From Armatimonadota bacterium (GTDB lineage Bacteria; Armatimonadota; UBA5829; DTLH01): a stretch of 64,000 nucleotides of DNA. The translations under genes were made by a program, and so were the position numbers. The stretch lies in contig JBDKSP010000021.1 in assembly GCA_039680575.1 (NCBI GenBank), positions 13,239 to 77,238 on the forward strand, in the 5' to 3' direction. Shown one piece after another: positions 7,653-25,909 of the stretch. The stretch's first letter is position 1, and every line of letters begins with the position of its first letter. Below the pieces are notes generated by a model. The model saw only the letters and a program-made list of their open reading frames with translations. It searched no databases and was not told where the DNA came from.

Positions 7653-7723
7653 AAAAGAGATCTGCTTGATGTTTTACCGGAAGTGTGGTACGCTTTCCCG
7701 TTGTTTATGGAGAGCAGTGCAAA

Positions 7724-9058
7724 ATGCCGTTATTTGATGATCAGGCAGACAAGATTGATTCAGGTGCGCCGCTTGCAGCAAGGATGCGTCCGAGGACTCT
7801 GGATGAATTTCTGGGACAGGAGCATATACTCGGCTCGGACAAGCTGCTCAGGCGCGCCATAGAGCGTGATGAGCTTACTTCCGTTATATTCTGGGGTCCT
7901 CCCGGCTGTGGGAAGAGCACCTTGGCTGGTATTATTGCAAATACGAGCCAGTCAGTGTTTGAAAACTTCAGCGCGGTCATATCGGGGATCGCAGATGTCA
8001 GAAAAGCCGTAGCAAAAGCAGATGAACGCCGCAAAACCTACGGGCAGAAGACGATTTTATTCGTCGATGAAATACATCGCTTCAACAAAGCCCAGCAGGA
8101 TGCGTTTTTGCCGCATGTGGAAAGCGGCACTGTGGTTTTGATCGGTGCGACTACGGAAAACCCCTATTTTGAGGTCAACTCACCGCTTATCTCGCGTTCA
8201 CGCATATTCAAGTTCGAGCCACTTACTAATAATAGCATCAAAGAGATCATATCAACCGCCATTTTGGACCCCGAAAGAGGGTTCGGAAGCCTGAATGTGG
8301 AACTCGATCAGGATGCGCTCGATCATATTGTGAATGTGGCTGCTGGGGACGCCAGAAACGCGTTGAACGCGCTTGAACTTGCGGTTATGACGACACCTCC
8401 TGATGAGGCCGGCGTGCGGCAGGTAACTTTACAAATTGCTGAGGAAGCTATACAGCAGAGAGTGTTGAACTACGACAAAAATGGGGATAACCATTACGAT
8501 ACGATCTCTGCATTTATAAAATCGATGAGAGGCTCCGACCCGGACGCAGCCCTTTACTGGCTTGCACGGATGTTGCATGTGGGCGAAGATCCGAGGTTCA
8601 TCGCCAGGAGGATAGTCATTCAATCCGCGGAAGATGTAGGCAACGCAGACCCGATGGCGCTTGTAGTTGCTACCGCGGCTGCTCAGGCGGTTGAATATGT
8701 CGGTATGCCGGAAGCTAGAATACCGCTGGCGCAGGCCGCGATTTATCTGGCCTGCGCGCCGAAGAGCAATGCAAGCTATCTGGGGATCAGCCGGGCTATG
8801 AAGGATGCCGCTGAGAGGCGCCCGGCTCCGGTCCCGGTGCATTTGCGTGATGCGGGCTATCCGGGAGCAAAAAAAATCGGGCATGGCAAGGGCTACAAGT
8901 ATCCTCATGATTTTCCAGGCGGATACGCTCCTCAGGAATACGTTCCTGACGATGCTAAAAGCGGCAGATATTATGAACCGACGGAAAGAGGCCATGAAGC
9001 AAAGTTCAAGAAGCGGCTTGAGGCAATAAGAAAAGGTGCGGAGGACGTCGAGGAGTAA
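7724..9058 (+). CDS. rarA: replication-associated recombination protein A (RarA/MgsA AAA+ ATPase)
   Basis: Walker [12 protein letters not shown], Walker [11 protein letters not shown]-terminal MgsA helical domain ([16 protein letters not shown]). GGAGAG RBS 10 nt before the ATG at 7724. The longer ORF begins at 7685. Confidence 0.85.
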
Positions 9059-10218
9059 TGAACAATCGAGTAGCTGTAGCCATGAGCGGCGGAGTCGATA
9101 GTTCCGTTGCCGCGGCGATCCTTGTCGAGCAGGGGTATGAAGTAATCGGTGTTACAATGTGTCTGCTTAAGGGGTCTTTGGAACGGTCTACAGGTGCATG
9201 CTGCACACCGGAGTCCGTTGAAGATGCACGAAGAGTCGCCGCAAAGCTCGGAATCAGCCATTACGTGATCCCGATGCAGGAACAGTTCGATAATTTTGTT
9301 ATAGATAATTTCATAGAGGAATACAAACGGGGGCACACCCCGAACCCATGCATAAGGTGCAACAGGTTTCTGAAATTCGATGTATTGATTGAATGGGCAA
9401 AATCAGTCGGAGCGGACAGGATTGCAACCGGGCATTACGCGGGAGTCAGATACGACGAAGAGTGCGGCAGATGGCTTCTTTTGCGCGGCAAGGACAGGTC
9501 GAAGGACCAGGCTTACGCACTCTATGCGCTTACGCAGCCGCAGCTGGAGAGGGTCATCTTTCCGCTTGGCGGAATGAAGAAAGTTGAGACGAGAAAGCGT
9601 GCAGCTGAGCTCGGGTTGAGAGTGGCGGACAAGCCGGACAGCCAGGAGATTTGCTTTGTACCGGGCAGAGATTATCCGGCTTTTCTGAGGGCTGTCGCTC
9701 CCGAGTTGGTCCAGCCGGGTCCAGTTGTCGATTTGGACGGTAAAGTGCTTGGCCAGCACCAGGGTATAGCTTTTTATACTGTCGGGCAGCGTAAGCGGCT
9801 TGGTATCAGTTCTCACGAACCAAGGTATGTAGTGAGGGTGGACAGTGAGACAAATACGGTTGTAGTCGGGGCGAATGAGGACCTTTTTGCTGGAACGCTT
9901 GTAGCAAAAGATCTGAACCTGATCTCGATTGAGAGCCTGCCTGATACCCTTGCCGTTACAGCGAAGATCAGATATAATACGAAAGATTCGCCGGCAGTCG
10001 TTCGCGGGCTGTTCAAAAATATGGCCGAGGTTGTATTCGAACAACCGCAAAGAGCAGTAACTCCGGGACAGGCTGTCGTGATGTATCAGGGCGAAATCGT
10101 GGTCGGAGGCGGGACTATCGCCGACGAACGGGAAGCCGAGGAGATAATCTCCCTTACGAAAGCACGAAAGGGAGAAAACACGAAAGAAGAGACAGGAAAC
10201 AGGGAACAAAGGGCGTAA
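9058..10218 (+). CDS. mnmA: tRNA 2-thiouridine(34) synthase MnmA
   Basis: PP-loop AMSGGVDSS. Catalytic Cys motifs NPCIRCN and EICF. Length 386 aa. Confidence 0.85.
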   Translation: MNNRVAVAMSGGVDSSVAAAILVEQGYEVIGVTMCLLKGSLERSTGACCTPESVEDARRVAAKLGISHYVIPMQEQFDNFVIDNFIEEYKRGHTPNPCIRCNRFLKFDVLIEWAKSVGADRIATGHYAGVRYDEECGRWLLLRGKDRSKDQAYALYALTQPQLERVIFPLGGMKKVETRKRAAELGLRVADKPDSQEICFVPGRDYPAFLRAVAPELVQPGPVVDLDGKVLGQHQGIAFYTVGQRKRLGISSHEPRYVVRVDSETNTVVVGANEDLFAGTLVAKDLNLISIESLPDTLAVTAKIRYNTKDSPAVVRGLFKNMAEVVFEQPQRAVTPGQAVVMYQGEIVVGGGTIADEREAEEIISLTKARKGENTKEETGNREQRA

Positions 10219-10408
10219 GAGATAATTTATGGAGAATATGCATCGGCAAGCAGTCCGAAGCAGAAGTCTCCACCAATCCGAGAGGCTGGCTTCGGCGCAA
10301 AAGACACGCACGGAAGCATACCTATAGAGTTTCAGGAGATAAAGTAACAGCCTTACAGCTATATAAACAGTTCTCTGATATAGCTTTATCTGTTAATTTT
10401 ACACTTAC

Positions 10409-10484
10409 ACCTGAAACTCTTCCGGAGGATTTTCGGCAACAGCCAAAATATGATTGGCCGTTAATTAATCAGCCGAAAATCTAT
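10409..10484. repeat. fragment of the MITE-like repeat family (shares the palindromic module of copy E, interrupted by a 37-bp insert)
   Basis: cctgaaactcttccggaggattttcggc ... gccgaaaatc is the reverse complement of the 28390-28460 module of copy E. Confidence 0.5.
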
Positions 10485-10517
10485 AGATTCTGAATCCTGT
10501 TTTGGAGGCATTGGCGA

Positions 10518-10937
10518 GTGCTGCAAGGTTTGTTAGTTGCCGCTGTAGTAATAAACAGCCTGGTCCTGCTGGCTGTGGTCATAGCAGGGATTCTGATTGT
10601 CAAAAGGATCAGCAGGGCTGCAGATGCAGCGGAAGATGCAATAAATAATGTTCGTGATGAGCTGCCGACAACAATTAAAACAGCGAACGATACGCTGCGG
10701 GCAGCTCAAAGCACGCTAAAGTCAGTAGACAGGCTGGCAGACAGGACCACTGAGGAGCTTTACAGGGTAGATGATATTCTGGCATCAATAGACAAGCTGC
10801 TTAGAGGTGTGACTGTCGCAGATGCCGCTGTAAAGGTGGTCAAAAGTACACATTCGACAGCCGCTGGTGTACTGGCTGGAATCAAGGAAGCTCTGCGGGT
10901 TTTTCATTCATCAGCAGGGAAAACAAAGGAGGATTAG
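10518..10937 (+). CDS. DUF948/YtxG-like membrane-anchored coiled-coil stress protein
   Basis: GTG start 9 nt after GGAGG. Single N-terminal TM helix followed by a coiled coil. Size and architecture match Bacillus ytxG-type general stress proteins. Confidence 0.5.
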   Translation: MLQGLLVAAVVINSLVLLAVVIAGILIVKRISRAADAAEDAINNVRDELPTTIKTANDTLRAAQSTLKSVDRLADRTTEELYRVDDILASIDKLLRGVTVADAAVKVVKSTHSTAAGVLAGIKEALRVFHSSAGKTKED

Positions 10938-10941
10938 GGAT

Positions 10942-11208
10942 ATGAGTAATAACGAAGAGAAAGGTGTTGCTCTGAACTTTCTGGCAGGAGTTGGTATAGG
11001 TGCAATAATCGGTGCAGGAATAGCGCTTTTGTTTGCACCCAAATCAGGTACTGAGACTCGCGATGATATCAAAAACGCGATGCATGAACTGTCAAAATCG
11101 ACGGAAGACCTTCGAAATAAAAGCGCTGAGATAGTCGAATCAGCGAAAGCCAGAGTCCAGGAGACCATAAATAGAAGACGGATAGGTGAAGAGTCTGAAG
11201 AGGCCTAA
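10942..11208 (+). CDS. YtxH-like general stress protein
   Basis: AAAGGAGG RBS. N-terminal motif GAGIALLFAPKSGTETRDDI is the hallmark of the YtxH family. Confidence 0.65.
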   Translation: MSNNEEKGVALNFLAGVGIGAIIGAGIALLFAPKSGTETRDDIKNAMHELSKSTEDLRNKSAEIVESAKARVQETINRRRIGEESEEA

Positions 11209-11366
11209 TCCAAAATCCGAAAACTCCTCAAAATGGAACGTTTCTATTTGGGATATACGTAGGCTTTCAGGGGAATGATTAGAGTAGGATTCACTACCGT
11301 GCTGTGGTCCATTTCAGGGCAGAATGGAGTGATATCGAAGTGAATTTCAGTATAGATACATACAAT

Positions 11367-11693
11367 ATGGAAAGCGGTGTGCCGGTCATAAAACTGACCG
11401 GTGAAGTCGACGTCTATACCGCGCCGCAGCTAAAGCAGCAGATGATAGGAATGCTCGAAGCAGGCGCGAATCAGATTCTCATTGATCTTACGGAAGTCGA
11501 GTACTTCGACAGCACAGCTCTTGGTGTGCTGATCGGGGGCCTCAAGCGGATGAGGGAACGTGACGGTAACCTATCGCTGATATGCCCGAACCCAAGGATC
11601 CGCCGGGTTTTCGAGATAACCGGGCTGGACAAGATTTTTGACATCTACAACAGCGCAGATGAAGCAAAAATCGCGATCCAACTGGTACCGTGA
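11367..11693 (+). CDS. anti-sigma factor antagonist (STAS domain, RsbV/SpoIIAA-like)
   Basis: STAS fold signature LTGEVDVYTAPQL...DLTEVEYFDSTALGVLIG, with the phosphorylatable Ser in DST. The ORF is open from 11304; the ATG at 11367 is preferred. Confidence 0.8.
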   Translation: MESGVPVIKLTGEVDVYTAPQLKQQMIGMLEAGANQILIDLTEVEYFDSTALGVLIGGLKRMRERDGNLSLICPNPRIRRVFEITGLDKIFDIYNSADEAKIAIQLVP

Positions 11694-11766
11694 TCACAAT
11701 GAGAATCGGTATAACCGGCGGAGCATTACTCCCGTTGGTTTCAGTAAGAGAAGGGAGCGTGGTTCG

Positions 11767-12183
11767 GTGGATGCTCAAAGTGAGCCCGCTGTTGTAGAGC
11801 TCAGGATACCTTGCAGGCCCGAATACGTCGGCGTTGCAAGACTGGCATTACTTGGCGTTGCAAGCAGGATGAAATTCTCATACGACCAGGTAGAAGATGT
11901 CAGGCTCGCTGTCGGAGAAGCCTGCACGACCTCGGTCGAGTGGGCCACAAAGAATAATCGGGCAGATACTGATATCGTTGTCAGAAGCAGTATCGCTGAT
12001 ACGAAACTGACAGTAGATATCATTGACAGTTCAGGTGAGCGGCGAGAGGCGCCCGCTGATCAGGAGAACGATAACGAGCCTGAAAGCCTTGGCGCGCTGC
12101 TGATAACGCTGCTCGTTGACGAGGTTACAGTGACACCAATTAACGGTGGCACACATGTCAAAATGGTTAAATATGCGGGTTAA
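11767..12183 (+). CDS. anti-sigma factor serine kinase (RsbW/SpoIIAB-like GHKL ATPase)
   Basis: HATPase_c_2-like block VRLAVGEACTTSVEWA. Position between the antagonist and the sigma gene. The start is uncertain: the ORF is open from 11638, and an in-frame GTG at 11767 is used here. Confidence 0.65.
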   Translation: MDAQSEPAVVELRIPCRPEYVGVARLALLGVASRMKFSYDQVEDVRLAVGEACTTSVEWATKNNRADTDIVVRSSIADTKLTVDIIDSSGERREAPADQENDNEPESLGALLITLLVDEVTVTPINGGTHVKMVKYAG

Positions 12184-12187
12184 TGCT

Positions 12188-12961
12188 ATGGCAACGCGAA
12201 GAAAGGGTGGCGTTGCGGGATGGACAGACGAAGAGACTGAGCAATTGTTTCGTCGTTATACCAGGACGCGAGACCCTCAAATTCGCGATCAGCTTGTCAT
12301 AATGCATCAGAACCTGGTGCGTTTTTTGGCGGGCAAGTTTGCGAACAGGGGTGAGGCACTTGAGGATCTCGTTCAGGTCGGCGTCATCGGGCTTATAAAT
12401 GCGATTGACAGGTTCGATCCTGAGCGGGGAACCAAGTTCTCGACCTATGCGACTCCAACAATTGTAGGTGAGATCCGACGCCATTTCCGCGACAAAGCAT
12501 GGAGCTTGAAAGTACCCCGCCGCCTGCAGGAGCTGAACCTTGCTGCAAATAAGGCTGCGGAGAGGTTAAGTCAATCACTCGGTCGCCCACCAACCATCCA
12601 GGATATTGCAAATGAAGTAGGCGCGACGGAAGAAGAGACGCTCGAAGCAATAGAACTTGGAAACGCCTACGACACGGTCTCTCTGGACAGCAAGCTGTCT
12701 CATGAGGGGGAATCCGCACCGCTTACTCTTGCGGAATTCGTAGGTGGGATGGATGGGTCGCTGCAGAACATAGATACTTACGGTGACCTGAAACAGGCGA
12801 TGGAGTGCCTTGAACCAAGAGAAAAGGCGATTATTTACTATCGCTTCTTTAAGGATATGTCTCAGACTGAGGTCGCGCGGAGACTGAACATCTCACAGAT
12901 GCATGTTTCCAGACTTCAGCAAAAAGCGCTGAAACGGTTGAAAGACCTGCTCAACGAATAA
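12188..12961 (+). CDS. RNA polymerase sigma factor, group 3 (SigB/SigF-like)
   Basis: Region 2 LVQVGVIGLINAIDRFDPERGTKFSTYATPTIVGEIRRHFRD, and a region 4 helix-turn-helix (MSQTEVARRLNISQMHVSRL). The ATG lies 4 nt after the stop of the kinase gene. Confidence 0.85.
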   Translation: MATRRKGGVAGWTDEETEQLFRRYTRTRDPQIRDQLVIMHQNLVRFLAGKFANRGEALEDLVQVGVIGLINAIDRFDPERGTKFSTYATPTIVGEIRRHFRDKAWSLKVPRRLQELNLAANKAAERLSQSLGRPPTIQDIANEVGATEEETLEAIELGNAYDTVSLDSKLSHEGESAPLTLAEFVGGMDGSLQNIDTYGDLKQAMECLEPREKAIIYYRFFKDMSQTEVARRLNISQMHVSRLQQKALKRLKDLLNE

Positions 12962-13026
12962 AAGAATGCATTCATCAAGGCGGAGGGGCTTACCATTGCC
13001 CTCCGCCATCACTGGTATCTCACACT

Positions 13027-14175
13027 ATGATTACAAACAGTTGGGTTCGTATTACCGCATGGGCTGCAGGGCTTCTGGCAGTCGCAGCAGCGCTTCACAT
13101 CATCCAATTATCATACCTGCCGGTCATCAAACCTGTGCTGGATGTACTGTTGCCGATTTCCATTGCTTTTGTACTGGCGCTACTTCTCGATTCTACTATC
13201 GACAGGATACAAAAACGGGGTATTTCCCGCGGCGCGGCCGTAGGGATTGTAGCGCTTGCCTTTGTGGCTATAATCGTTATATCGGCTGTTTTCCTGATAC
13301 CGGCTTTGATCGATCAGGCGAAAGAACTGGGGTTGAATGCTCCCGGATACACCCGCGATGCAGGAGTATATATAAACAGGTTCATGTCGGAGCATCGCAG
13401 TCTGCTGGAGCGTGTGCACCTGCCGACCACTATGGAAGGTATATCGACTCGTTATGGAAGCCAGATCGAAAAAGTGGCCGCAGCATCGTTTTCACGGGTC
13501 GGAACATGGTTGGGAGGACTCTTATCCAGCATCGTATGGCTGGTAATTATCCCTATTGTCACGATTTTCCTTTTGATCGATATCGATAAGATCAAAGCGA
13601 AGGCGCTTCTTCTTGCGCCGGAACGCCACAGGGAGCGGACAGCCTCGCTGGCAAGCTCCGTAGGACGTGTATTTGGAGCCTACATCCGGGGGCTCTTAAC
13701 TGTATCAGTTCTGTATGGAATAGCCTGCGGCGTTGTTATCTGGGCTTTGGGTGTGCCATATGCGGTGATTCTGGGAGCTGCGGCAGGCGTTTTGTCGCTG
13801 GTTCCTTATATAGGCACGATAAGCACTGTAATTCTAGTCGGCACCGTCGCAATGGTCGCAAGCGGGAACCCTGTGATGGGTATATGGGCTGCTCTCGCCA
13901 TTCTTGTGATGAACCAGGCCTTCGATAATGCAGTTACCCCCAAGATCGTCGGCAAGGCTGTAGGTCTTCACCCGGCACTTTCGATAATATCACTCCTAAT
14001 CGGTGCGAGGATGTTCGGGTTTATCGGCATGATAATCTCTGTTCCGGTCGCTGCGAGCATACAGATCCTTGTTTTGGAGTTCTACCCGCCGCTGAGGGGA
14101 CCGGAAGAGGAAGAAAAGCCCAAAAAACCGTCTCTTTTCACAAGATTCGGAAACCTCTTGAAGAAGCAGAAGTAA
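13027..14175 (+). CDS. AI-2E family (PerM/YhhT-like) transporter
   Basis: About 8 TM helices and a length of 382 aa, with the conserved AI-2E layout. A low-complexity acidic/basic C-terminal tail. Confidence 0.6.
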   Translation: MITNSWVRITAWAAGLLAVAAALHIIQLSYLPVIKPVLDVLLPISIAFVLALLLDSTIDRIQKRGISRGAAVGIVALAFVAIIVISAVFLIPALIDQAKELGLNAPGYTRDAGVYINRFMSEHRSLLERVHLPTTMEGISTRYGSQIEKVAAASFSRVGTWLGGLLSSIVWLVIIPIVTIFLLIDIDKIKAKALLLAPERHRERTASLASSVGRVFGAYIRGLLTVSVLYGIACGVVIWALGVPYAVILGAAAGVLSLVPYIGTISTVILVGTVAMVASGNPVMGIWAALAILVMNQAFDNAVTPKIVGKAVGLHPALSIISLLIGARMFGFIGMIISVPVAASIQILVLEFYPPLRGPEEEEKPKKPSLFTRFGNLLKKQK

Positions 14176-14352
14176 CTAATATACGATGGAGTATAATTTG
14201 ATTATATGTGTTCTGACAGAAAATATATAACTATATCTTGAATAGTAAGGTTGAATGCGATATACTTCGGTAGAGCCCGTGGCAGTATCTGAGGCTGAAT
14301 ATCAGTTTGAGGTAGTGCGCACGGGCATTTTCTCTGAAGGGGGGAAATAAAA

Positions 14353-15114
14353 GTGGGAGAAATAGTGGAATTTATAAATCCAGAGCCAAGTGAGGTTGCA
14401 GGCAAACAGGCCAGAACTGCAGTTAAGCGTAATGGGCCAAAATGGGAGATAGATGCACGTGAAAAACTGAAAGCTTCGATAAAACGATTCAATAAGGCCC
14501 TTGTTGATTTAAAGGATCGAGATGCAAATGAAGCAGATACTCGATTATTCGTTACTGATGTATTATGTGATGCTCTTGGGTTAGATAAATATACAGAATT
14601 ATGCACAGAGTATCGTGTAAAGGGTGAGTATGTAGACTATGGCATCCGTTTAGAAAATGATATGATTGCATTTGTTGAAGTTAAGCGGATAAATACGAAA
14701 CTAGGGACAAAGCATCTTAGGCAAGTTCAGAATTATGCGGTAAATGAGGGAGTCGAGTGGATTATTCTTACTAACGGAGCGCAGTGGCAGGTATATCACT
14801 TAAGTGGTGGGCTTCCACTCATCACTGATCTTGCAATAGAGATAGATTTGCTTGGCGATATTCCAATGGGGCAGAAGGTAAACACGATGTTTTATCTTAC
14901 ACGTGATGCCCTAAAACGCGGGAAGCTTATGGATCTTTGGCAGGAAAAACGAGTTACTGCTCCTAATTCTTTAGCGCGGATATTACTGTCTGATTCAATT
15001 GTTATTGCCGTTAGAAAAGAGCTGAAAAAGGCAACTGGCTATAATATAGATCCCACCGAAATAGTTCGCTTGGTTAAGGAGACGTGCTTAAAGCCAGAGT
15101 GTTTTGAGAAGTAA
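14353..15114 (+). CDS. stand-alone HsdR-N/Mrr-like PD-(D/E)xK nuclease-fold protein
   Basis: Motifs NEADTRLFVTDVL, VDYGI and FVEVKR, followed by YAVNEGVEWIILTNGAQWQVY, match the N-terminal nuclease domain of type I restriction R subunits. The gene and its 5' spacer are markedly AT-rich relative to the flanks. Confidence 0.6.
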   Translation: MGEIVEFINPEPSEVAGKQARTAVKRNGPKWEIDAREKLKASIKRFNKALVDLKDRDANEADTRLFVTDVLCDALGLDKYTELCTEYRVKGEYVDYGIRLENDMIAFVEVKRINTKLGTKHLRQVQNYAVNEGVEWIILTNGAQWQVYHLSGGLPLITDLAIEIDLLGDIPMGQKVNTMFYLTRDALKRGKLMDLWQEKRVTAPNSLARILLSDSIVIAVRKELKKATGYNIDPTEIVRLVKETCLKPECFEK

Positions 15115-15115
15115 G

Positions 15116-15141
15116 AAAAAGGGCCGGGCTTCAACCCGGCC
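15116..15141 (-). terminator. rho-independent terminator (hairpin ggccgggcttcaacccggcc plus T5 on the minus strand), downstream of aspS and MITE copy B
   Basis: Perfect 7-bp GC stem. A ttttt run follows on the minus strand. A similar hairpin recurs at 57790-57809. Confidence 0.5.
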
Positions 15142-15163
15142 AATAATCATCGATTTCTGTATG

Positions 15164-15363
15164 CGTAAGAGTTCAGAGTTGATGAGTATAATATCATGCT
15201 GAACTACCACAACGTCATTCCGAGCTTGACTCGGAATCCAGGAAAAACTGGACCCTGAATCAAGTTCAGGGTGACGTGTTTGCCGTCCAGGGTGACGTCC
15301 TTCCATAATGACGAGTTAGTTGTTCAGGGTAATATATAATTCTTACAAGAGTGAACTATTACC
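15164..15363. mobile_element. MITE-like palindromic repeat, copy B (inverted relative to copy A)
   Basis: TIRs gtaagagttcagagttg / caagagtgaactattac. Internal gctgagcttgactcgg... and ccctgaatcaagttcaggg palindromes. Confidence 0.7.
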
Positions 15364-15448
15364 TGTATGCTATGGAAGCAACATTGTATAATATTGCAGG
15401 CTTATGTTGAACAATCATTCCCACGGCCTTCAGTATGTAAAACTAACG

Positions 15449-17224
15449 CTACTCTTCTTCCTCCAAAACCTGTATGTGCAGTTCTTGGAGCTGCGCGTCA
15501 TCTACCGGTGCGGGCGCGGCAGTCATCGGATCGATTCCTGTCGATGTCTTCGGGAAGGCTATGACCTCGCGGATGCTGTCGTCGTCCGTGAAGAGCGTCA
15601 CTGTCCGGTCGATACCTGATGCGAACCCACCGTGCGGCGGCGCGCCATACTCGAAAGCTTCCAGCATGTGCCCGAACCGCTCCTGGGCGGCTTCTTCGCT
15701 GTAGTTCATAAGCTCGAAGACCTTTGTCTGGACATCGCGCCTGTGTATTCTTATGCTGCCTGAACCAAGCTCGAACCCGTTACAGACCAAATCATAACAC
15801 CATGCTCGGACTCTCGCCGGGTCGGTTTCGAGATACTGCATATCGTCCTCGTGCGGCGATGTAAACGGGTGGTGCATAGCGTCCCAGCGCTTCCCAGCCT
15901 CATCCCACTCGACCAGCGGGAAGTCTACTACCCAGCAGAACGCCATTTCATCTTTGTTCGCAAGTCCAAGGCGTTTACCCATCTCTGCTCTCATACGCCC
16001 AAGCGCGGAAGCGACCACTTCCGGCTTATCCGCAACAATTGCAAGAAGATCGCCGGTCTTTGCATGTGCTCGCTCGATGATGGCAGCCATCTGTTCATCA
16101 GTCAGGAATTTGGCAATAGAAGATTTGACGCCGTCTTCGAGAACTGCAATGGTAACCAGTCCCTTTGCTCCGAATGTCTTAGCGAACTGGGTAAGATCGT
16201 CTATTTCTTTTCTGCTGTAACCGGCGCAGCCAGGGAGAGTAATACCCTTAACCTGCCCGCCGGACTCCGCAGTGTTCTTGAAGACCTGGAAATCGGTCGT
16301 TCCGGCAATATCAGTAAGGTTATAGAGCTCCATTCCGAACCTGAGGTCTGGCTTGTCCGAGCCGTAGCGCTCCATTACCTCATTATAGGAATATCTCGGG
16401 AACGGTACAGGGAACTTGATCTTCTTATCTGAGAGCTTTTCGACCATCTGAGAATGGAGATCATCCATGAGCTCGAAAACGTCTTCCTGCTTGATGAAAC
16501 TCATCTCCAGGTCGAGTTGTGTGAACTCAGGCTGGCGGTCGGCTCGTGGGTCCTCGTCCCTGAAACATCTGGCTATCTGGAAATAGCGTTCGAAACCCGC
16601 AACCATCAGAAGCTGCTTGAGCTGCTGAGGAGACTGCGGAAGCGCGTAGAACGAACCAGGATAAAGCCTTGCGGGCACAAGATAGTCTCTTGCGCCTTCC
16701 GGTGTGCTCTTGATGAGAACTGGAGTCTCGACCTCGATAAAATTGTGCTCGTCCATGAAGTCTCGAATGAGCTTCACGATCTTGTGACGGAGGAATATCC
16801 TATGCTGCATATTGGGTCGGCGCAGGTCGAGATAACGGTACTTCATACGGATCATCTCGTCCACGTCGATCTGGTCTGAGATAGGGAAGGGCGGCGTCTT
16901 GGCGGTATTAAGCACTTCGATAGCGGACACTTCTACCTCGACTTCGCCGGTCTTCAGATGCGGGTTCTCGGTCCCTTCGGGGCGCAGTCGTATCTTGCCG
17001 GTAATCTCCAGAACGTATTCGCCTCGCACTCCTTCAGCGACTTTGAATGGGTCAGGAGTCTTTACCGGGTCGATGACCGTTTGGATGATTCCCGTCCTGT
17101 CGCGAAGGTCGATGAATATCAAGCCGCCGTGGTCACGAATCCGCTGAACCCAGCCGTTAAGCCGGATTTCCTGACCTGTCTGATCGGCTGTAACCTCGCC
17201 GCACCACACTGTTCTTTTTAGCAT
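15449..17224 (-). CDS. aspS: aspartate--tRNA ligase
   Basis: N-terminal OB-fold anticodon-binding domain, the bacterial insertion domain, class II motifs (FRDEDPRADRQPEFTQLD, GGFASGIDR). Length 591 aa. Confidence 0.9.
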   Translation of the reverse strand: MLKRTVWCGEVTADQTGQEIRLNGWVQRIRDHGGLIFIDLRDRTGIIQTVIDPVKTPDPFKVAEGVRGEYVLEITGKIRLRPEGTENPHLKTGEVEVEVSAIEVLNTAKTPPFPISDQIDVDEMIRMKYRYLDLRRPNMQHRIFLRHKIVKLIRDFMDEHNFIEVETPVLIKSTPEGARDYLVPARLYPGSFYALPQSPQQLKQLLMVAGFERYFQIARCFRDEDPRADRQPEFTQLDLEMSFIKQEDVFELMDDLHSQMVEKLSDKKIKFPVPFPRYSYNEVMERYGSDKPDLRFGMELYNLTDIAGTTDFQVFKNTAESGGQVKGITLPGCAGYSRKEIDDLTQFAKTFGAKGLVTIAVLEDGVKSSIAKFLTDEQMAAIIERAHAKTGDLLAIVADKPEVVASALGRMRAEMGKRLGLANKDEMAFCWVVDFPLVEWDEAGKRWDAMHHPFTSPHEDDMQYLETDPARVRAWCYDLVCNGFELGSGSIRIHRRDVQTKVFELMNYSEEAAQERFGHMLEAFEYGAPPHGGFASGIDRTVTLFTDDDSIREVIAFPKTSTGIDPMTAAPAPVDDAQLQELHIQVLEEEE

Positions 17225-18471
17225 ACTGCCTCCACAACTTTATCGATAGGGACTTCCCGCTGCTCTTTTGCAAGCATATCTCTCACGGATACTACGCCCT
17301 TTTTGATCTCATCTTCACCGATTATCAATACGAACTTCGCGCCGAGTTTGTCAGCAAGTTTCATCTGTGACTTGAGGCTCCTTCCGGTAAAATCGGTTTC
17401 TGCTGATATACCATTATCTCTCAGGTCATAAATAAGCCTGATTGCCGCTTCACGCGCTTCGTTTCCCATTACAGCGAGGAAAACACTCGGTCTGGTATCC
17501 ACTTCAAGGTCGATCCCGAGCTTTTCGAGTGTCAGGAGGAGCCTCTCCATACCCAGCCCGAAACCGAGCGATGGAGTAGGGGAGCCGCCCATTTCTTCGA
17601 TCATCATATCGTACCGCCCGCCGCCGCAAATGGTGTTTTGCGCGCCGAGGTGAGGAGTCTGGAACTCGAATATCGTCCTCGTGTAGTAGTCGAGCCCTCG
17701 AACAAGGTGCGGATCTAGCACATAAGGGATATTCAGCGCTGTCAGATAGCTCTTTACCGTCTCAAAGTGCGTCTTGCAGTCGTCGCAGATTATATCCACA
17801 ATCACAGGAGCATCAGCGAGGAGTTCCCTGCAGTGCTCATCCTTGCAATCGAGCATTCTAAGCGGGTTTTGTTCGTATCTCACCTGACATGTCGGACAGA
17901 GCTCTTTTACAAAAGGTGCTGCGAACTTGCGGAGCGCCTCTCGATATGTCGGGCGGTCTTCCGGGCCGCCGATTGAGTTTAGCCGCAGTTCTACGCCCGT
18001 AATTCCGAGGTCTTTGAAGAACTTCCACGCAAGAGAGATCACCTCGACATCGGCTGACGGGTCAGCAGCGCCGATCATCTCAAGCCCCATCTGGTTGTGC
18101 TCTCTGTAGCGCCCGGATTGAGGCCGTTCATAGCGGAAAATCCGGCTGAAATAGTAAAGTTTCGATACAGGTAGTTCTGTACCAAGATTGTGTTCCAGAT
18201 AAGCCCGTACCGTGGGAGGCGTACCTTCCGGTTTAAGCGTCAGGCTTCGTCCGCCCTGATCGGTAAAAGTATACATCTGCTTTGTGACGATATCCGTCGT
18301 CTTACCCGTGTGGCGAGTAAAAAGCTCAGTCTCTTCGAATGTTGGAGTCCGTATCTCCCTGAAGTCGAAAAGCCTGCATATTTCCCTGAATTTATTCTCA
18401 ATAAACTGCCAACGCGGGGTTGCAGACGGTAAGACATCCTGCGTTCCCCGCGGCGCATTGAACCTGGTCAT
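17218..18471 (-). CDS. hisS: histidine--tRNA ligase
   Basis: Class II aaRS motifs and HisS-specific regions (RGTQDVLP, YFSRIFRYERPQSGRYREHNQ). GGAGGAG RBS ahead of the internal Met. The ORF extends to 18504. Overlaps the aspS start by 7 nt. Confidence 0.9.
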   Translation of the reverse strand: MTRFNAPRGTQDVLPSATPRWQFIENKFREICRLFDFREIRTPTFEETELFTRHTGKTTDIVTKQMYTFTDQGGRSLTLKPEGTPPTVRAYLEHNLGTELPVSKLYYFSRIFRYERPQSGRYREHNQMGLEMIGAADPSADVEVISLAWKFFKDLGITGVELRLNSIGGPEDRPTYREALRKFAAPFVKELCPTCQVRYEQNPLRMLDCKDEHCRELLADAPVIVDIICDDCKTHFETVKSYLTALNIPYVLDPHLVRGLDYYTRTIFEFQTPHLGAQNTICGGGRYDMMIEEMGGSPTPSLGFGLGMERLLLTLEKLGIDLEVDTRPSVFLAVMGNEAREAAIRLIYDLRDNGISAETDFTGRSLKSQMKLADKLGAKFVLIIGEDEIKKGVVSVRDMLAKEQREVPIDKVVEAVC

Positions 18472-18535
18472 TTTATAATAGCTCCTCCACATGATATTAG
18501 CCAAAATGCCTTATTGTGTCAAACTGCAGGAGTTT

Positions 18536-18643
18536 GTAAAGAGCTCAGGGTTGATGAGAATAGCATCATGCTGGATTATCACAACGTCATGCTGAGCTTG
18601 ACTCAGCATCCAGGAAGAAAATGGACCCTGAATCAAGTTCAAA
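18536..18643. mobile_element. MITE-like repeat, truncated copy C (same orientation as copy B)
   Basis: Shares about 100 bp with copies B and E (gttgatgag...catcatgctg...caacgtcatgctgagcttgactcagcat...ggaccctgaatcaagttca). The distal half is absent. Confidence 0.6.
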
Positions 18644-18818
18644 GCGAATGCGTCTAAATTTTGAAACGCGAATTACGCGGATTTAACGGATTTTGCGATT
18701 CAGAATCTTTGGTAACGATTCGAAATAAGAGCGTTTGCCCTCCAAACTGCCTCTAGCCACATCGTATCCCAACTGATAAAATAACAACTGTATTCGATTA
18801 AATAGACAGCAGGTTGTT

Positions 18819-19733
18819 ATGGCTGATAAATACTATGTTGCCGGGATCGACGGCGGCGGGTCTAAAACAGAATGCGCGATAGTGGACCAGGACGGGCTTT
18901 GTGTGGCCATCGGCCTCGGTGGTCCTTCTAATATTTTTTATGCGGATATTTCAAATGTAATCGAGTCTCTCGATACAGCCATGGCTTCCGCAATTGAAAA
19001 CGCTGGTGAACACGTGAAAGTCGTACTCACCGGATGCACTCACCGGGCAGCGCGAATTCCCGAAGTTAAGGCTCGGATATCGGAACGCCTGGGCGGGGAT
19101 GTCCGCCTGTATACTGAGGGGGAAGCCGCGCTGGGAAGCGCCGGGTTTTCAGAGCGTTTCGGGATAGCTCTCATCGCAGGTACCGGCAGCAGCGCATTCG
19201 GATTTACACGTGATGGAAAGCGCTGCCGTGCCGGAGGGTGGGGGATGCTCTTGGGCGACGAAGGCAGCGCGTATGATATTGCCGTAAGCGGGCTAAGGTC
19301 CGCCACGCGGATGATGGACGGAAGAGGCCCGAAAACGGTAATTCTCGACCGTGCCTGCGAGCACTTCTGTATTTCCCCCGGCTTTGAGTCCTTCGTTCAG
19401 TTCTTCAAGGGTACGCCGAGGGATAAAATTGCATCGTTTGCGCCGATGGTCACAGCCGCTGCTCGTGAAGGCGATACGGCAGCTGAAACGATTGTTTCTA
19501 ATGCCGCAAGGGACCTTGCGGAGTGTGTCATCGCATTAGCGCGTAAGCTATTCTCACAGGATGATGAATTCCCGGTAGCGCTTCACGGCGGAGTTATGCG
19601 TGACAGCAGGACGGCGGAATGCATAACCGAGTTGATAAAAGAAAGATACCCTAATGCCGATGTCCGCACTCCGATATACAGTCCCGGTGTCGGGCTCGCG
19701 CTTTTTACACTGAATGATATGGTAGGTGGATAA
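18819..19733 (+). CDS. BadF/BadG/BcrA/BcrD-type ATPase (N-acetylglucosamine-kinase-like)
   Basis: ASKHA-superfamily N-terminal phosphate-1 loop VAGIDGGGSKTE and the ADENOSINE motif IAGTGS. Length 304 aa. Confidence 0.7.
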   Translation: MADKYYVAGIDGGGSKTECAIVDQDGLCVAIGLGGPSNIFYADISNVIESLDTAMASAIENAGEHVKVVLTGCTHRAARIPEVKARISERLGGDVRLYTEGEAALGSAGFSERFGIALIAGTGSSAFGFTRDGKRCRAGGWGMLLGDEGSAYDIAVSGLRSATRMMDGRGPKTVILDRACEHFCISPGFESFVQFFKGTPRDKIASFAPMVTAAAREGDTAAETIVSNAARDLAECVIALARKLFSQDDEFPVALHGGVMRDSRTAECITELIKERYPNADVRTPIYSPGVGLALFTLNDMVGG

Positions 19734-20928
19734 TTTGGTTGATGTCTTATTTGAAATTGGTCCAAAAATCATCCAAGAGGAGAATATCGACGGTTATAAA
19801 CGGATAACCGGAGAGTTTTGGACAGCTCGCCAGAGGCAGATGCACTCCATCCACTACGCCGTGTCATACCGCGCGTCTTTCAAGCCGGAATTGCCGAATT
19901 ATTTTATAAACCGTTATTGCAGCGACTATAAAAATGACATGGTGCTCGACCCGTTCGGCGGCCGAGGTACAACAATATTGGAAGCCAATATTCTCGGTTT
20001 TTCAGGCTATTCGAACGATGTGAACCCGCTTTCCGAACGGATCGCTCGCCCGAAATGCCGCCCGGTTACGCTGGAAGAGGCCAGTAAGCATTTAGATCGG
20101 ATCGATTTCAACGCCGATGTCGATATCAGCGATTACAGCGACTTTTCGCCCTTTTATCACATAGACACATACCGGGAGATGCTTGCGCTGAAGGAGTATC
20201 TGAAGAAAAACAGGTCGGACGCTGATTGCTTTATAGAGATGATAGCCCTTTCTCGCCTGCATGGACACTCGAGAGGCTTCTTTTCGGTCTATTCATTTCC
20301 TCAAATATCCATTCTAAGTGCCGCGCAGGCAAGGATCAATGAGCAGCGGAACCAGACTCCCGAATACAGGCAGGTCAAGCCGCTTATTTACCAGAAAGCA
20401 AAGAGAGTCCTAAAGGATTTCACCGGAGAAGAGATCGTAAAGCTGAATGAAACGGCCGCAAGGAACATCTTCACCTGCGAAGACAGCCGGAATATGGCCA
20501 GCATACCCCAGGACTCTGTCACGCTTATAGTCACTTCACCTCCGTTTCTGAATAAAGCCGACTATATTCAGGATAACCGGCTCGAGTTCTGGTTCCTGGG
20601 CATAGATCCTGAACCGCTGAAAGAGAAAGTAGTCCAGACCAAAAATCTCGATGAATGGATAGAGTTTATGAGGGACAGTATCCGGGAGATGTATCGGGTG
20701 TTGAGGACCGGCGGGGTCGCTGTGATAGAGGTCGGGGATGTGAAGCATAAAGGACATACGATTAATCTGGATGAGGTAATCGTCGAGCTTGGTAAAGAGG
20801 CCGGGTTCAGTGTCGTCGAGGTACTGATAAATTTCCAGCAGTTCACGAAACTCGCAAACTGCTTCAATGTAGATAACATGAGCAAGGGAACGAACACAAA
20901 CCGCCTCGTTATCATCAGAAAGGATTGA
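19726..20928 (+). CDS. site-specific DNA amino-methyltransferase, alpha-class topology (N4-cytosine or N6-adenine)
   Basis: AdoMet motif I VLDPFGGRGTT at aa 76, and catalytic motif IV SPPF at aa 270, separated by a putative target-recognition region. The GTG start as called overlaps the upstream gene by 8 nt. Confidence 0.65.
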   Translation: MDNLVDVLFEIGPKIIQEENIDGYKRITGEFWTARQRQMHSIHYAVSYRASFKPELPNYFINRYCSDYKNDMVLDPFGGRGTTILEANILGFSGYSNDVNPLSERIARPKCRPVTLEEASKHLDRIDFNADVDISDYSDFSPFYHIDTYREMLALKEYLKKNRSDADCFIEMIALSRLHGHSRGFFSVYSFPQISILSAAQARINEQRNQTPEYRQVKPLIYQKAKRVLKDFTGEEIVKLNETAARNIFTCEDSRNMASIPQDSVTLIVTSPPFLNKADYIQDNRLEFWFLGIDPEPLKEKVVQTKNLDEWIEFMRDSIREMYRVLRTGGVAVIEVGDVKHKGHTINLDEVIVELGKEAGFSVVEVLINFQQFTKLANCFNVDNMSKGTNTNRLVIIRKD

Positions 20929-20979
20929 GTTTCCATACCCAGCGGTATAAGTAAACGGCATCCTTAAACGGAGGGAAAC

Positions 20980-21258
20980 ATGTCGTTACCGTATTACGGC
21001 GGGATGAGGCACATTCATACCACTTCCGACAGATTCGATCAGGCCTGTGGCGAGATAAGACGACTATCCGATGAAGATGTGGGGCGGGTCTTGGAGTTTA
21101 TATACGGATTGAAGCGGGAACGCGGAGATGTGACCGGAAAAGCCGCAGGAAACCCGGAGTTGCTTGTAGGACACGCTGGTAAGTTCAGTTTTAATGCGGG
21201 TGAAACCGAAACCCTGCTCAAAATGGTGCTCGAAGCAAGGGAGACGGTTTCCGAATGA
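20980..21258 (+). CDS. putative antitoxin partner of the VapC toxin
   Basis: A 92-aa acidic protein whose stop overlaps the VapC start (ATGA). No recognised antitoxin fold. Confidence 0.4.
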   Translation: MSLPYYGGMRHIHTTSDRFDQACGEIRRLSDEDVGRVLEFIYGLKRERGDVTGKAAGNPELLVGHAGKFSFNAGETETLLKMVLEARETVSE

Positions 21259-21659: not shown

Positions 21660-21678
21660 AGATTGGTATCTTATTGCC

Positions 21679-25900: not shown

Positions 25901-25909
25901 GCAACAGTC

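What the first reader, a model, noticed from the sequence alone, without database searches (positions are those of the whole stretch)
14176..15141. AT-rich islet encoding a solitary HsdR-N / Mrr-like PD-(D/E)xK nuclease domain
The 253-aa protein at 14353-15114 has the NEADTR...D-x(n)-EVKR core and the ILTNGxxW block of the N-terminal nuclease domain of type I restriction R subunits. It lacks helicase domains, and no hsdM/hsdS gene is adjacent. The gene and its 5' spacer are visibly AT-richer than the surrounding roughly 50% GC DNA and are followed by MITE copy B. This suggests horizontal acquisition. Stand-alone HsdR-N proteins are widespread but functionally uncharacterised and could be minimal defence or DNA-repair nucleases.
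Basis: partly seen in the sequence, partly recalled or inferred. Interest (0 to 1): 0.55.

Follow-up and report, generated by a model that had tools for sequence, protein, structure and literature searches.

The report
Horizontally acquired solitary HsdR-type nuclease gene
A single foreign gene for a small DNA-cutting enzyme, related to the nuclease head of type I restriction enzymes, has been inserted between two housekeeping genes of an Armatimonadota bacterium; it is most likely a one-gene anti-phage/anti-plasmid defence, is a member of an already catalogued but untested protein family, and is only moderately interesting.

Summary
ORF 14353-15114 encodes a 253-aa protein with an intact HsdR-N-type PD-(D/E)xK nuclease core (E60, D95, E109-x-K111, Q124xxxY128). 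A C-terminal helical domain is conserved across the family.

The gene has the lowest GC of 44 long ORFs in the window (GC 0.407; GC3 0.336 against 0.536, z = -5.3). A sister genome, about 89% identical in DNA, has an empty site: AI-2E transporter and aspS lie 61 nt apart there, against 1273 nt here. The insert is a 939-nt cassette bracketed by the 8-bp repeat AGAAGTAA. "MITE copy B" (15165-15362) is a true MITE with its own 8-bp target duplication, inserted separately.

Across 81 loci from four or more phyla the gene has no recurrent neighbour: no hsdM, hsdS or helicase. It is usually AT-shifted against its host and does not follow phylum phylogeny. Homologues sit in a temperate Thermus phage's lysogeny module and in toxin-antitoxin-rich plasmid regions. 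A few are fused to RAMA, DUF5655 or TerD domains.

Best reading: a horizontally acquired, self-contained defence nuclease, type IV-like or otherwise able to tell self from non-self. The "Mrr-like" label is not supported. It is a new member of a known, biochemically uncharacterised family (Pfam HSDR_N_2; the COG2810 link rests only on JGI names).

The parts
14168..14175 (+). Left copy of the 8-bp direct repeat AGAAGTAA. These are the last bases of the AI-2E transporter gene (...Q-K-stop).
   Evidence: Read directly from the sequence. The junction was defined by alignment to the empty site in L109.
14176..14352 (+). 5' spacer/leader of the cassette (GC 0.379). It holds a promoter-like site at 14238-14266 (TTGAAT-17-TATACT) and a long hairpin at 14275-14326. 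A small hairpin at 14327-14348 pairs the GAAGGGGGG ribosome-binding site.
   Evidence: Promoter scan. RNA fold z = -5.35, with 0 of 200 shuffles folding as well. The structure is not conserved in homologues' leaders. The segment is absent from the sister genome.
14353..15114 (+). Gene for the 253-aa solitary HsdR-N-type PD-(D/E)xK nuclease. Residues 1-24 are variable and disordered. A long helix spans 30-55. The nuclease core spans about 56-165 (nt 14518-14847), with E60, D95, E109, K111, Q124 and Y128. The conserved helical C-terminal domain spans 172-251 (nt 14866-15105).
15107..15114 (+). Right copy of the 8-bp direct repeat AGAAGTAA. These are the last bases of the nuclease gene (...E-K-stop).
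   Evidence: Read directly from the sequence.
15116..15141 (.). A-tract plus GC-rich hairpin (GGGCCGGG-CTTCAA-CCCGGCC), terminator-like on the minus strand. It is probably the ancestral bidirectional AI-2E/aspS terminator, now also serving the nuclease gene.
   Evidence: Terminator scan. It aligns at 73% over 30 nt with the L109 intergenic hairpin 11156-11185.
15157..15164 (.). Left target-site duplication of MITE B (CTGTATGC).
15165..15362 (+). MITE copy B, 198 nt, with terminal inverted repeats GTAAGAGTTCA / TGAACTATTAC. It is an independent transposition into the 3' flank.
   Evidence: Four intact copies have perfect 8-bp target duplications; shuffled controls gave 0 such hits in 18 of 20 runs.
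15363..15370 (.). Right target-site duplication of MITE B (CTGTATGC).
15371..15448 (.). Residual AT-rich intergenic DNA up to the aspS stop codon. It contains 'cccacggccttcag', which resembles the right arm of the sister genome's terminator hairpin. Its origin is unresolved.

Best explanation
The interval 14176-15114 is a 939-nt single-gene cassette that entered this Armatimonadota lineage by horizontal transfer. It landed immediately after the stop codon of the AI-2E transporter gene and upstream of the terminator shared with aspS. A MITE later transposed into its 3' flank.

**What it encodes.** The product is a free-standing version of the endonuclease domain of type I (HsdR) and type IIG restriction enzymes. 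It has a PD-(D/E)xK core with a complete metal-binding and catalytic set (E60, D95, E109, K111) and the RecB/HsdR-type QxxxY helix (Q124, Y128). A family-specific helical C-terminal domain follows the core.

**Proposed mechanism (inferred).** The protein acts alone, probably as a homo-oligomer, as a DNA endonuclease that protects the cell against phages and plasmids.
- It has no cognate methyltransferase, translocase or specificity subunit.
- Self/non-self discrimination must therefore lie in the protein itself. It could recognise modified or otherwise atypical DNA (type IV-like logic) through the conserved N-terminal helix and C-terminal helical domain. Alternatively its activity or expression could be kept low until infection.

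**Shown:** gene reality, fold, intact catalytic motifs, insertion polymorphism, compositional foreignness, absence of any conserved partner, carriage on a prophage lysogeny module and on plasmids.

**Inferred:** nuclease activity, the defence role, and the mode of target discrimination.
For: **Identity of the protein**
- Pfam HSDR_N_2 is above its cutoff, and 130 of 150 family representatives match it.
- AF2 mean pLDDT is 83.5, with alpha-beta-beta-beta-alpha-beta order. D95 sits at the start of a strand, E109/K111 at the end of the next, and Q124/Y128 in the following helix.
- D95/E109/K111 align to EcoKI D298/E312/K314 with the same spacing.
- The QxxxY motif lies immediately after Motif III, as described for EcoR124I (PMC2475608).
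- The catalytic residues are invariant or at least 90% conserved across 150 divergent representatives.

**Acquisition**
- Empty site in GCA_039679675.1 and SRR15035648, with 61 nt against 1273 nt.
- More distant relatives also lack the gene next to AI-2E.
- GC3 z = -5.3.
- The 8-bp repeat AGAAGTAA sits at both junctions.

**Solitary and mobile**
- The largest shared-neighbour cluster covers 7 of 81 loci, and those neighbours are metabolic.
- No Pfam family occurs in more than 3 of 137 immediate neighbours.
- 60 of 78 homologues are more than 3 GC points below their flanks.
- Identity within Armatimonadota (0.60) is no higher than identity between phyla.

**Defence context**
- The Thermus phage Riverbug homologue (38% identity, 85% coverage) lies between the CI/LexA-like repressor and the integrase.
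- phrog_17239 matches full length, E = 3e-51.
- Plasmid copies sit among HipA, Fic, PIN, HigB and MazF modules.
- Relatives are fused to RAMA, a predicted reader of methylated DNA found on restriction nucleases (PMC4738411), and to DUF5655 and TerD.
- The only other gene-sized difference from the sister genome nearby is a PADLOC defence candidate, PDC-S01.
Against: - No nuclease or defence assay exists for any family member that I could find.
- PADLOC has no model for it; the only hit is a weak one to a type IIG nuclease head.
- Many chromosomal loci have ordinary metabolic neighbours rather than recognisable defence islands.
- Members are 50-70% identical between phyla, and the whole length is constrained. 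That is atypical for restriction nucleases. It would fit a conserved cellular role or partner at least as well.
- RAMA's preference for methylated DNA is itself not confirmed biochemically (PMC11037411).
Confidence: 0.55

Rival explanations
1. Accessory DNA-repair or recombination nuclease. The protein would cut a DNA structure (flap, junction, stalled fork or damaged base context) and be retained for genome maintenance, not defence.
For: - Purifying selection is unusually strong over the whole length. 50 of 253 columns are invariant across four phyla, and identity between phyla is 50-70%.
- The QxxxY motif is shared with RecB-family repair nucleases (PMC2475608).
- Many loci lie among housekeeping or metabolic genes.
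Against: - The gene is absent from a sister genome that is 89% identical, with a clean empty site.
- Distribution is patchy: 182 pattern-confirmed hits among 185,579 species genomes, which is a lower bound.
- Synteny is not conserved, even within genera.
- Composition is foreign here and AT-shifted in most hosts.
- Copies occur in a prophage lysogeny module and in toxin-antitoxin-rich plasmid regions.
- No association with repair genes was seen.
Confidence: 0.17
2. Selfish free-standing endonuclease gene. It would be homing-endonuclease-like or an addiction element that spreads by cutting empty sites, or persists by killing cells that lose it, with no benefit to the host.
For: - It moves as a single-gene cassette with its own leader.
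- It is inserted precisely in an intergenic site and bracketed by an 8-bp repeat.
- Locations are variable, and it is carried by mobile elements.
Against: - Insertion sites in different genomes are unrelated, so there is no homing to a cognate site.
- There is no intron, intein or transposase context.
- No antitoxin-sized conserved partner ORF was found.
- Synonymous sites have adapted to each host while the protein stays conserved. This implies long residence under selection, not the decay cycle typical of homing endonuclease genes.
Confidence: 0.1
3. Trans-acting restriction subunit. The nuclease would dock onto a methyltransferase or specificity complex encoded elsewhere. One candidate is the Type II DNA methyltransferase at 19726-20928; another is a type I M2S complex. 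The result would be a split R-M enzyme.
For: - The fold equals the nuclease head of type I and type IIG enzymes, with 161-163 residues aligned to EcoR124I HsdR and BpuSI.
- MmeI_N gives a sub-threshold hit.
- A DNA methyltransferase gene lies 4.6 kb away.
Against: - No methyltransferase, specificity or helicase gene recurs near the 81 homologues.
- The window's methyltransferase is separated from the nuclease gene by aspS and hisS, and has host-like codon composition (GC3 0.593), unlike the foreign nuclease gene.
- The family's fusions are to reader-like or TerD domains, not to methyltransferases.
Confidence: 0.06
4. Catalytically silent DNA-binding or regulatory protein derived from a nuclease fold.
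For: Some PD-(D/E)xK proteins have become regulators. The leader is elaborately structured.
Against: All catalytic residues (D95, E109, K111, plus E60, Q124 and Y128) are invariant or nearly so across the family. This argues for retained chemistry.
Confidence: 0.03

Closest known systems
Endonuclease domain of type I restriction R subunits (HsdR; Pfam HSDR_N PF04313 / HSDR_N_2 PF13588; structures 2w00 EcoR124I and 3h1t)
   Same: - Same motif set and spacing: D-x13-E-x-K followed by QxxxY in the next helix.
- HSDR_N_2 HMM above its cutoff.
   Different: - No SF2 translocase or C-terminal helical HsdM-contact domains.
- No hsdM or hsdS nearby, here or in 81 homologous loci.
- A family-specific, highly conserved C-terminal helical domain of about 85 residues, with no specific structural match.
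N-terminal nuclease heads of type IIG/IIL enzymes (BpuSI 3s1s, DrdV 7lo5, MmeI_N PF20464)
   Same: - MmeI_N HMM hit in this protein and in 15 of 150 relatives.
   Different: - MmeI_N scores below its Pfam cutoff here (24.2 against 27).
- No fused methyltransferase or target-recognition domain.
COG2810 'predicted type IV restriction endonuclease' / phrog_17239 (stand-alone HsdR-N proteins)
   Same: - JGI names many close homologues this way.
- Steczkiewicz et al. 2012 place HSDR_N_2 and COG2810 together as predicted type IV enzymes (PMC3424549).
- Full-length match to phrog_17239, E = 3e-51.
   Different: This is a prediction only. I found no biochemical or genetic characterisation. The COG itself could not be searched with the tools here.
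Modular single-protein modification-dependent nucleases (e.g. wH-fusion 6mA-dependent enzymes, PMC11037411; END nucleases, PMC12191111)
   Same: - One polypeptide, with no methyltransferase.
- N-terminal catalytic domain plus C-terminal accessory domain.
- Some relatives carry a RAMA reader-like domain.
   Different: - The catalytic folds or sensors differ: END nucleases use a PLD nuclease plus inactive EndoIII.
- No known reader fold is detectable in this protein.
Mrr (EcoKMrr; Mrr_cat PF04471)
   Same: Both belong to the PD-(D/E)xK superfamily and are solitary genes with no cognate methylase.
   Different: - No Mrr_cat HMM hit at E up to 1.
- hhalign to EcoKMrr is not meaningful.
- No Mrr_N winged-helix domain.

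Membership tests
HsdR-N-type PD-(D/E)xK nuclease domain (Pfam HSDR_N_2, PF13588) | Match to the family HMM at or above the curated gathering score | tested here: met
   27.4 bits against a cutoff of 25, residues 86-150. The margin is narrow, but 130 of 150 family representatives also match.
HsdR-N-type PD-(D/E)xK nuclease domain (Pfam HSDR_N_2, PF13588) | Catalytic Motifs I-III (E ... D ... E-x-K) present and conserved | tested here: met
   E60, D95, E109 and K111 are invariant in A1. D, E and K are at least 90% conserved in A3. They align to EcoKI D298/E312/K314.
HsdR-N-type PD-(D/E)xK nuclease domain (Pfam HSDR_N_2, PF13588) | [quoted passage not shown] | tested here: met
   Q124 and Y128 are invariant and lie in predicted helix 119-132. 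The motif definition comes from PMC2475608.
HsdR-N-type PD-(D/E)xK nuclease domain (Pfam HSDR_N_2, PF13588) | Restriction-endonuclease-like alpha/beta fold closest to solved HsdR nuclease domains | tested here: met
   [not shown]
HsdR-N-type PD-(D/E)xK nuclease domain (Pfam HSDR_N_2, PF13588) | Metal-dependent DNA cleavage | not testable with these tools
   Needs purified protein.
Type I restriction-modification system (as its R subunit) | SF2 helicase/translocase domains in the same polypeptide | tested here: not met
   253 aa. Only nuclease-domain HMMs hit.
Type I restriction-modification system (as its R subunit) | hsdM and hsdS genes in the same locus | tested here: not met
   The neighbours are AI-2E transporter, aspS and hisS. 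No methylase or specificity genes recur in 81 loci.
Type IIG/IIL restriction enzymes (MmeI-like) | MmeI_N nuclease head above cutoff, fused to gamma-class methyltransferase and TRD | tested here: not met
   MmeI_N scores 24.2 bits, below the cutoff of 27. No methyltransferase domain is present. The PADLOC REase_MTase_IIG hit covers only residues 92-151.
Mrr family type IV enzymes | Mrr_cat catalytic domain (PF04471) and Mrr_N DNA-binding domain | tested here: not met
   No hit at E up to 1. hhalign against EcoKMrr gives E 0.21 and does not reach the catalytic motifs.
Type IV (modification-dependent) restriction enzymes in general | Nuclease without a cognate methyltransferase | tested here: met
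   Solitary in the window and in 81 loci. The only methyltransferase in the window is 4.6 kb away and compositionally unrelated.
Type IV (modification-dependent) restriction enzymes in general | A recognisable modified-base reader domain (SRA, EVE/PUA, wH, RAMA, etc.) | tested here: not met
   [not shown]
Type IV (modification-dependent) restriction enzymes in general | Cleavage requires modified DNA | not testable with these tools
   Needs biochemistry or phage assays.
Known anti-phage defence systems (PADLOC-DB v2) | Significant match to a system component model | tested here: not met
   The only hit is a weak partial match, E 3.3e-4.
MITE (for the downstream repeat, copy B) | Short non-coding element, multiple copies, terminal inverted repeats, target-site duplication | tested here: met
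   The element is 198 nt, with 4 intact and 1 partial copy, 11-bp TIRs and perfect 8-bp TSDs that differ at each site. At least two copy sites (A and B) are unoccupied in the sister genome. The autonomous partner element was not sought.

The most novel reading that the evidence does not exclude
This tightly conserved ~250-aa clade (nuclease core plus an invariant C-terminal helical domain, 50-70% identical across Armatimonadota, Acidobacteriota, Chloroflexota and Actinomycetota, and also present in a Thermus prophage) could be a previously unrecognised, fully self-contained one-protein immunity system. Its non-catalytic helices would sense a conserved feature of invading DNA or a conserved host or phage protein. 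That would explain both the absence of any partner gene and the unusual sequence constancy. It would be a minimal restriction logic distinct from Mrr, McrBC and reader-fusion type IV enzymes.
Probability: 0.25. Interest if true: 0.6.

Novelty: new member of a known kind. Interest (0 to 1): 0.36.

Why it matters
If the defence reading is right, this is one of the smallest candidate immunity genes: 253 aa, with no partner. It also comes with a ready-made natural control. Two genomes about 89% identical in DNA differ at this site by exactly this cassette. The catalytic triad is clear and can be mutated.

The family is widespread in soil Terrabacteria and is carried by at least one temperate phage and several plasmids. 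A functional assignment would therefore annotate thousands of 'HsdR N-terminal domain-containing' orphans.

Its unusually high conservation raises the question of what a solitary nuclease recognises. Otherwise the locus is a routine example of a small horizontally acquired islet plus MITE activity, and the protein family is already catalogued.

Tried and rejected
1. **Sequence search against PDB.** Neither the single protein nor the family profile found a significant relative. Only fold comparison linked the protein to HsdR.
2. **Inversion between MITE copies A and B.** I had proposed this to explain the different gene order in more distant relatives. I dropped it because the close sister genome already has the convergent AI-2E/aspS arrangement without either MITE.
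3. **Terminal inverted repeats around the gene cassette.** None is convincing. Only the 8-bp direct repeat AGAAGTAA was found.
4. **Hidden partner inside the islet.**
   - Small ORFs are unconvincing.
   - Rfam found nothing at gathering score or at E up to 1, apart from a 23-nt chance match on the terminator hairpin.
5. **A conserved leader RNA.** The leader hairpin is significant here (z = -5.3) but is absent from seven homologues' leaders.
7. **Active-site geometry.** Model coordinates are not exposed to scripts, so distances could not be measured.
8. **Literature.** No experimental paper on stand-alone HsdR-N proteins was found. One C. jejuni comparative study lists such a gene as a difference between phage-resistant and phage-sensitive strains but did not test it.
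9. **Donor lineage.** It was not identified. The closest homologues are only 68-71% identical and have higher GC.
Full report

The ORF at 14353-15114 (+ strand, GTG start, 253 aa) is present. A purine-rich ribosome-binding site (GAAGGGGGG) precedes it.

It is a real gene. A search of 5.8 billion proteins returned 1917 homologues. The best 120 are all about 250 aa and 55-71% identical over 87-100% of the length. [quoted passage not shown]

- N59-E60-A-D62-T63-R64
- D95
- E109-V-K111-R112
- L139-T140-N-G ... W145

**2. Composition**

Formal calculation confirms the AT-rich impression.
- Gene GC is 0.407, spacer GC 0.379 and window GC 0.493.
- Among 44 non-overlapping ORFs of 150 aa or more, this gene ranks lowest for both GC (z = -4.8) and GC3 (0.336 against a mean of 0.536, sd 0.038, z = -5.3).
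- The 966-nt interval is in the lowest 0.35% of sliding windows, and every one of the lowest windows lies here.
- The low-GC stretch continues to 15448, the aspS stop codon.

**3. What the protein is**

Sequence-level evidence:
- Pfam gives HSDR_N_2 at 27.4 bits (cutoff 25). Hits to MmeI_N (24.2 against 27) and HSDR_N (20.3 against 25.1) fall below their cutoffs.
- NCBIfam and PADLOC give only weak partial hits, to a type I R subunit and to a type IIG enzyme head.
- There is no PDB relative by sequence.

Structural evidence:
- An AlphaFold2 model built on A1 is confident (mean pLDDT 83.5, pTM 0.69).
- It has a disordered, variable N-terminus (1-24), a long helix (30-55), an alpha/beta core (60-165) and a helical C-terminal domain (172-251).

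Catalytic residues:
- A profile alignment to EcoKI HsdR is statistically weak (E 0.024). It nevertheless places D95, E109 and K111 exactly on D298, E312 and K314, with the same 14-residue spacing. From my own knowledge, those are the EcoKI nuclease-motif residues.
- Q124xxxY128 sits in the helix right after Motif III. This is the position described for the RecB/HsdR QxxxY motif in EcoR124I, Q179 and Y183 (PMC2475608).
- I could not measure active-site distances, because the coordinates are not exposed.

The "Mrr-like" label is not supported beyond superfamily level. There is no Mrr_cat hit and no meaningful alignment to EcoKMrr.

**4. Family-wide picture**

An exhaustive HMMER search of 1.84 billion cluster representatives finds 2358 clusters at E up to 1e-3, 711 at 1e-10 and 131 at 1e-30. 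The full module, residues about 30-250, is recognisable down to about 30% identity.

Of the 150 best representatives:
- 130 match HSDR_N_2.
- Most are 220-290 aa.
- A minority carry extra domains: N-terminal TerD (3), C-terminal RAMA (3) and C-terminal DUF5655 (3).

RAMA was defined as a domain fused to restriction nucleases and adenine methylases and was proposed to read methylated DNA (PMC4738411). That preference has not been confirmed biochemically (PMC11037411).

**5. It is a lineage-specific insertion**

The flanking AI-2E transporter has a 90%-identical orthologue on a 210-kb contig of another Armatimonadota MAG (GCA_039679675.1; also in SRR15035648). The two genomes are 88-91% identical in DNA over 4000-18524.

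At the orthologous site the sister genome has the AI-2E stop, 61 nt holding a bidirectional terminator hairpin, then the aspS stop. The window has 1273 nt there. More distant relatives (AI-2E 74%) have AI-2E followed by GrpB, again without the nuclease gene.

Fine mapping shows three things.
- The cassette 14176-15114 (939 nt: leader plus ORF) is bracketed by the 8-bp direct repeat AGAAGTAA. The left copy, 14168-14175, is the end of the AI-2E gene. The right copy, 15107-15114, is the end of the nuclease gene.
- The A-tract plus GC hairpin at 15116-15141 aligns with the sister genome's terminator (73% over 30 nt).
- This suggests the cassette went in between the AI-2E stop codon and the pre-existing shared terminator.

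The 8-bp repeat could be a target duplication, a microhomology joint or a coincidence of two "...K-stop" gene ends. I cannot decide between these.

Deletion in the sister lineage is formally possible. It is disfavoured by the foreign GC3 and by the gene's absence from outgroups.

**6. The MITE**

The repeat after the gene is a real MITE. Four intact copies have 11-bp terminal inverted repeats (GTAAGAGTTCA / TGAACTnTTAC) and perfect target-site duplications that differ at each site:

| Copy | Coordinates | Target-site duplication |
|---|---|---|
| A | 5269-5450 | CTGCATTG |
| B | 15165-15362 | CTGTATGC |
| D | 25901-26091 | GCTCTTTT |
| E | 28303-28571 | GATAAAAT |

A fifth, partial copy lies at 18539 to about 18660.

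Copy B therefore transposed on its own into the 3' flank of the cassette and is not part of it. Contig L001, an independent assembly, ends about 80 nt after the gene's stop codon, just short of the MITE, as expected for a repeat.

**7. No partner gene**

- I fetched 80 loci from species-representative genomes: Armatimonadota, Pyrinomonadaceae, Chloroflexota, Acidimicrobiia, Rubrobacterales and many Streptosporangiales.
- I clustered all ORFs within 5 kb by all-against-all BLASTP. The largest neighbour cluster occurs in only 7 of 81 loci and is a peptidase. The next clusters are SDR, ABC-F and MFS proteins.
- At domain level, 137 immediate neighbours hit 146 Pfam families, and none occurs in more than 3 neighbours.
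- Pfam-annotated contigs for five homologues show the same heterogeneity.
- The window does hold a Type II DNA methyltransferase at 19726-20928. It is 4.6 kb away beyond aspS and hisS, and has host-like codon composition.

**8. Evidence for mobility and a defence context**

Mobility:
- Homologues are AT-shifted relative to their flanks in most hosts (mean -0.058; 60 of 78 below -0.03).
- Their GC3 ranges from 0.51 to 0.94 (0.34 in the window gene), tracking host composition, so many are long-resident.
- Identity within Armatimonadota (mean 0.60) is no higher than identity to other phyla (0.59-0.62). Two Armatimonadota copies have Actinomycetota or Acidobacteriota nearest neighbours.

Carriage on mobile elements:
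- The family matches phrog_17239 over its full length (E 3e-51).
- In temperate Thermus phage Riverbug the homologue (38% identity, 85% coverage) lies directly after the LexA/CI-like repressor and before the integrase. From general phage biology, this is the position where prophages carry exclusion or defence genes expressed in lysogens.
- Plasmid copies in Arthrobacter and Leptospira sit among HipA, Fic, PIN, HigB and MazF modules and IS elements.

Local context:
- The only other gene-sized difference between the window and the sister genome in this region is 5186-6765. It holds MITE A plus an AAA_14/DUF4143 ATPase, which is a full-length match to the PADLOC defence candidate PDC-S01.

**9. 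Mechanism**

The most likely reading is a self-contained defence endonuclease.

Chemistry (inferred from conserved residues and fold): two-metal or one-metal PD-(D/E)xK hydrolysis. D95 and E109 would bind the metal, K111 would act as the general base or positioner, E60 comes from the first helix, and Q124/Y128 would stabilise the site on DNA.

Target discrimination (inferred): there is no methyltransferase. The enzyme must therefore either require a feature absent from host DNA, which is type IV logic and is in line with the RAMA-fused relatives and the COG2810 label, or be kept inactive until infection.

The window-specific leader could limit expression. It has a long hairpin (14275-14326) and a hairpin that sequesters the ribosome-binding site (14327-14348), with z = -5.3. 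It is not a family feature.

Confidence:
- About 0.95 that this is a horizontally acquired solitary HsdR-N-type nuclease gene.
- About 0.55 that it works in defence as described.

The main counter-argument is the remarkable sequence constancy: 50 invariant columns of 253, and 50-70% identity across phyla. That is unusual for restriction nucleases and keeps a repair or partner-dependent role alive.

**10. Novelty and verdict**

The protein belongs to a catalogued family. These are Pfam HSDR_N_2 and group 48 of the PD-(D/E)xK census (PMC3424549). The census groups HSDR_N_2 with COG2810, and JGI names many homologues accordingly. This exact sequence already carries an NCBI name.

I found no experimental characterisation of stand-alone members.

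The finding is correct, well delimited and now backed by an empty-site comparison. It is a new member of a known kind rather than a new kind of system. Interest is moderate, at 0.36. Its value lies in being a compact, clean and testable candidate for a one-gene immunity function.

Noticed in passing
window 5186-6765: This is a second window-specific insertion relative to the sister genome (1580 nt against 17 nt). It holds MITE copy A (5269-5450) and gene 5524-6747, an AAA_14 + DUF4143 ATPase. That gene is a full-length match (E 6e-105) to the PADLOC candidate defence gene PDC-S01. Both gene-sized differences between the two genomes in this region are therefore solitary defence-like genes lying next to a MITE.
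   Followed up: partly
window 5269-5450, 15165-15362, 18539-~18660, 25901-26091, 28303-28571: This is a MITE family of 180-270 nt with 11-bp terminal inverted repeats and 8-bp target-site duplications. The density is five copies in 64 kb, all intergenic. Internally it carries repeated GTTCAGGGTGACGT motifs and a conserved CGTCATGCTGAGCTTGACTCAGCATCCAGG palindromic core. The autonomous transposase partner was not sought.
   Followed up: partly
window 18525-21680: Synteny with the sister genome ends at 18524, beside the partial MITE copy C. A small variable island follows. It has a BadF/BadG-type ATPase (18819-19733) and an orphan-looking Type II DNA methyltransferase (19726-20928; N6_N4_Mtase, SPPF motif; PADLOC MTase_II E 1e-100). 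Two short ORFs overlapping by 4 nt follow (20980-21258 and 21255-21659), laid out like a toxin-antitoxin pair. They have no PADLOC hit and were not Pfam-tested.
   Followed up: partly
window 14275-14348: The leader of the nuclease gene folds into a 52-nt imperfect hairpin followed by a U-rich run, plus a second hairpin that pairs the ribosome-binding site. The fold z-score is -5.3, and 0 of 200 shuffles fold as well. It is not found in seven homologues' leaders. It could terminate AI-2E transcription or throttle nuclease expression.
   Followed up: partly
window 14168-14175 and 15107-15114: An identical 8-mer, AGAAGTAA, sits at both junctions of the 939-nt cassette. Each copy is the last 8 nt of a gene (AI-2E ...QK-stop and nuclease ...EK-stop). 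It may be a target duplication, a microhomology joint or a coincidence.
   Followed up: partly
window 10278-10500: A 223-nt low-GC intergenic segment corresponds to only 27 nt in the sister genome. It is another small indel between the two genomes.
   Followed up: no
window 24934-25836: This TPR + thioredoxin-domain gene has the second-lowest GC of the window's long ORFs (0.446; GC2 0.31). It lies immediately upstream of MITE copy D.
   Followed up: no
L090, L093, L111, L112 (relatives of the window genome): Gene order around AI-2E, aspS and hisS differs among related Armatimonadota. In L090 and L093, hisS and aspS lie upstream of the RarA/MnmA/sigma-factor block on the same strand. In L111 and L112, AI-2E is followed by GrpB and the DUF5696/TPR/cysS block, which lies 7 kb further on in the window. 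The region is a rearrangement hotspot.
   Followed up: partly
L117 (Thermus phage Riverbug PQ109080.1, 31115-31909): A full-length family member, annotated 'restriction endonuclease', lies in the lysogeny module between the LexA-like repressor and the integrase of a temperate Thermus phage.
   Followed up: partly
P0173, P0182, P0307; P0222, P0225, P0232; P0285 (family representatives): Rare fusions of the whole nuclease + helical module occur with an N-terminal TerD domain, a C-terminal DUF5655 or a C-terminal RAMA domain. Each is seen in 3 of 150 representatives. About 20 further long members have extra regions with no Pfam match.
   Followed up: partly
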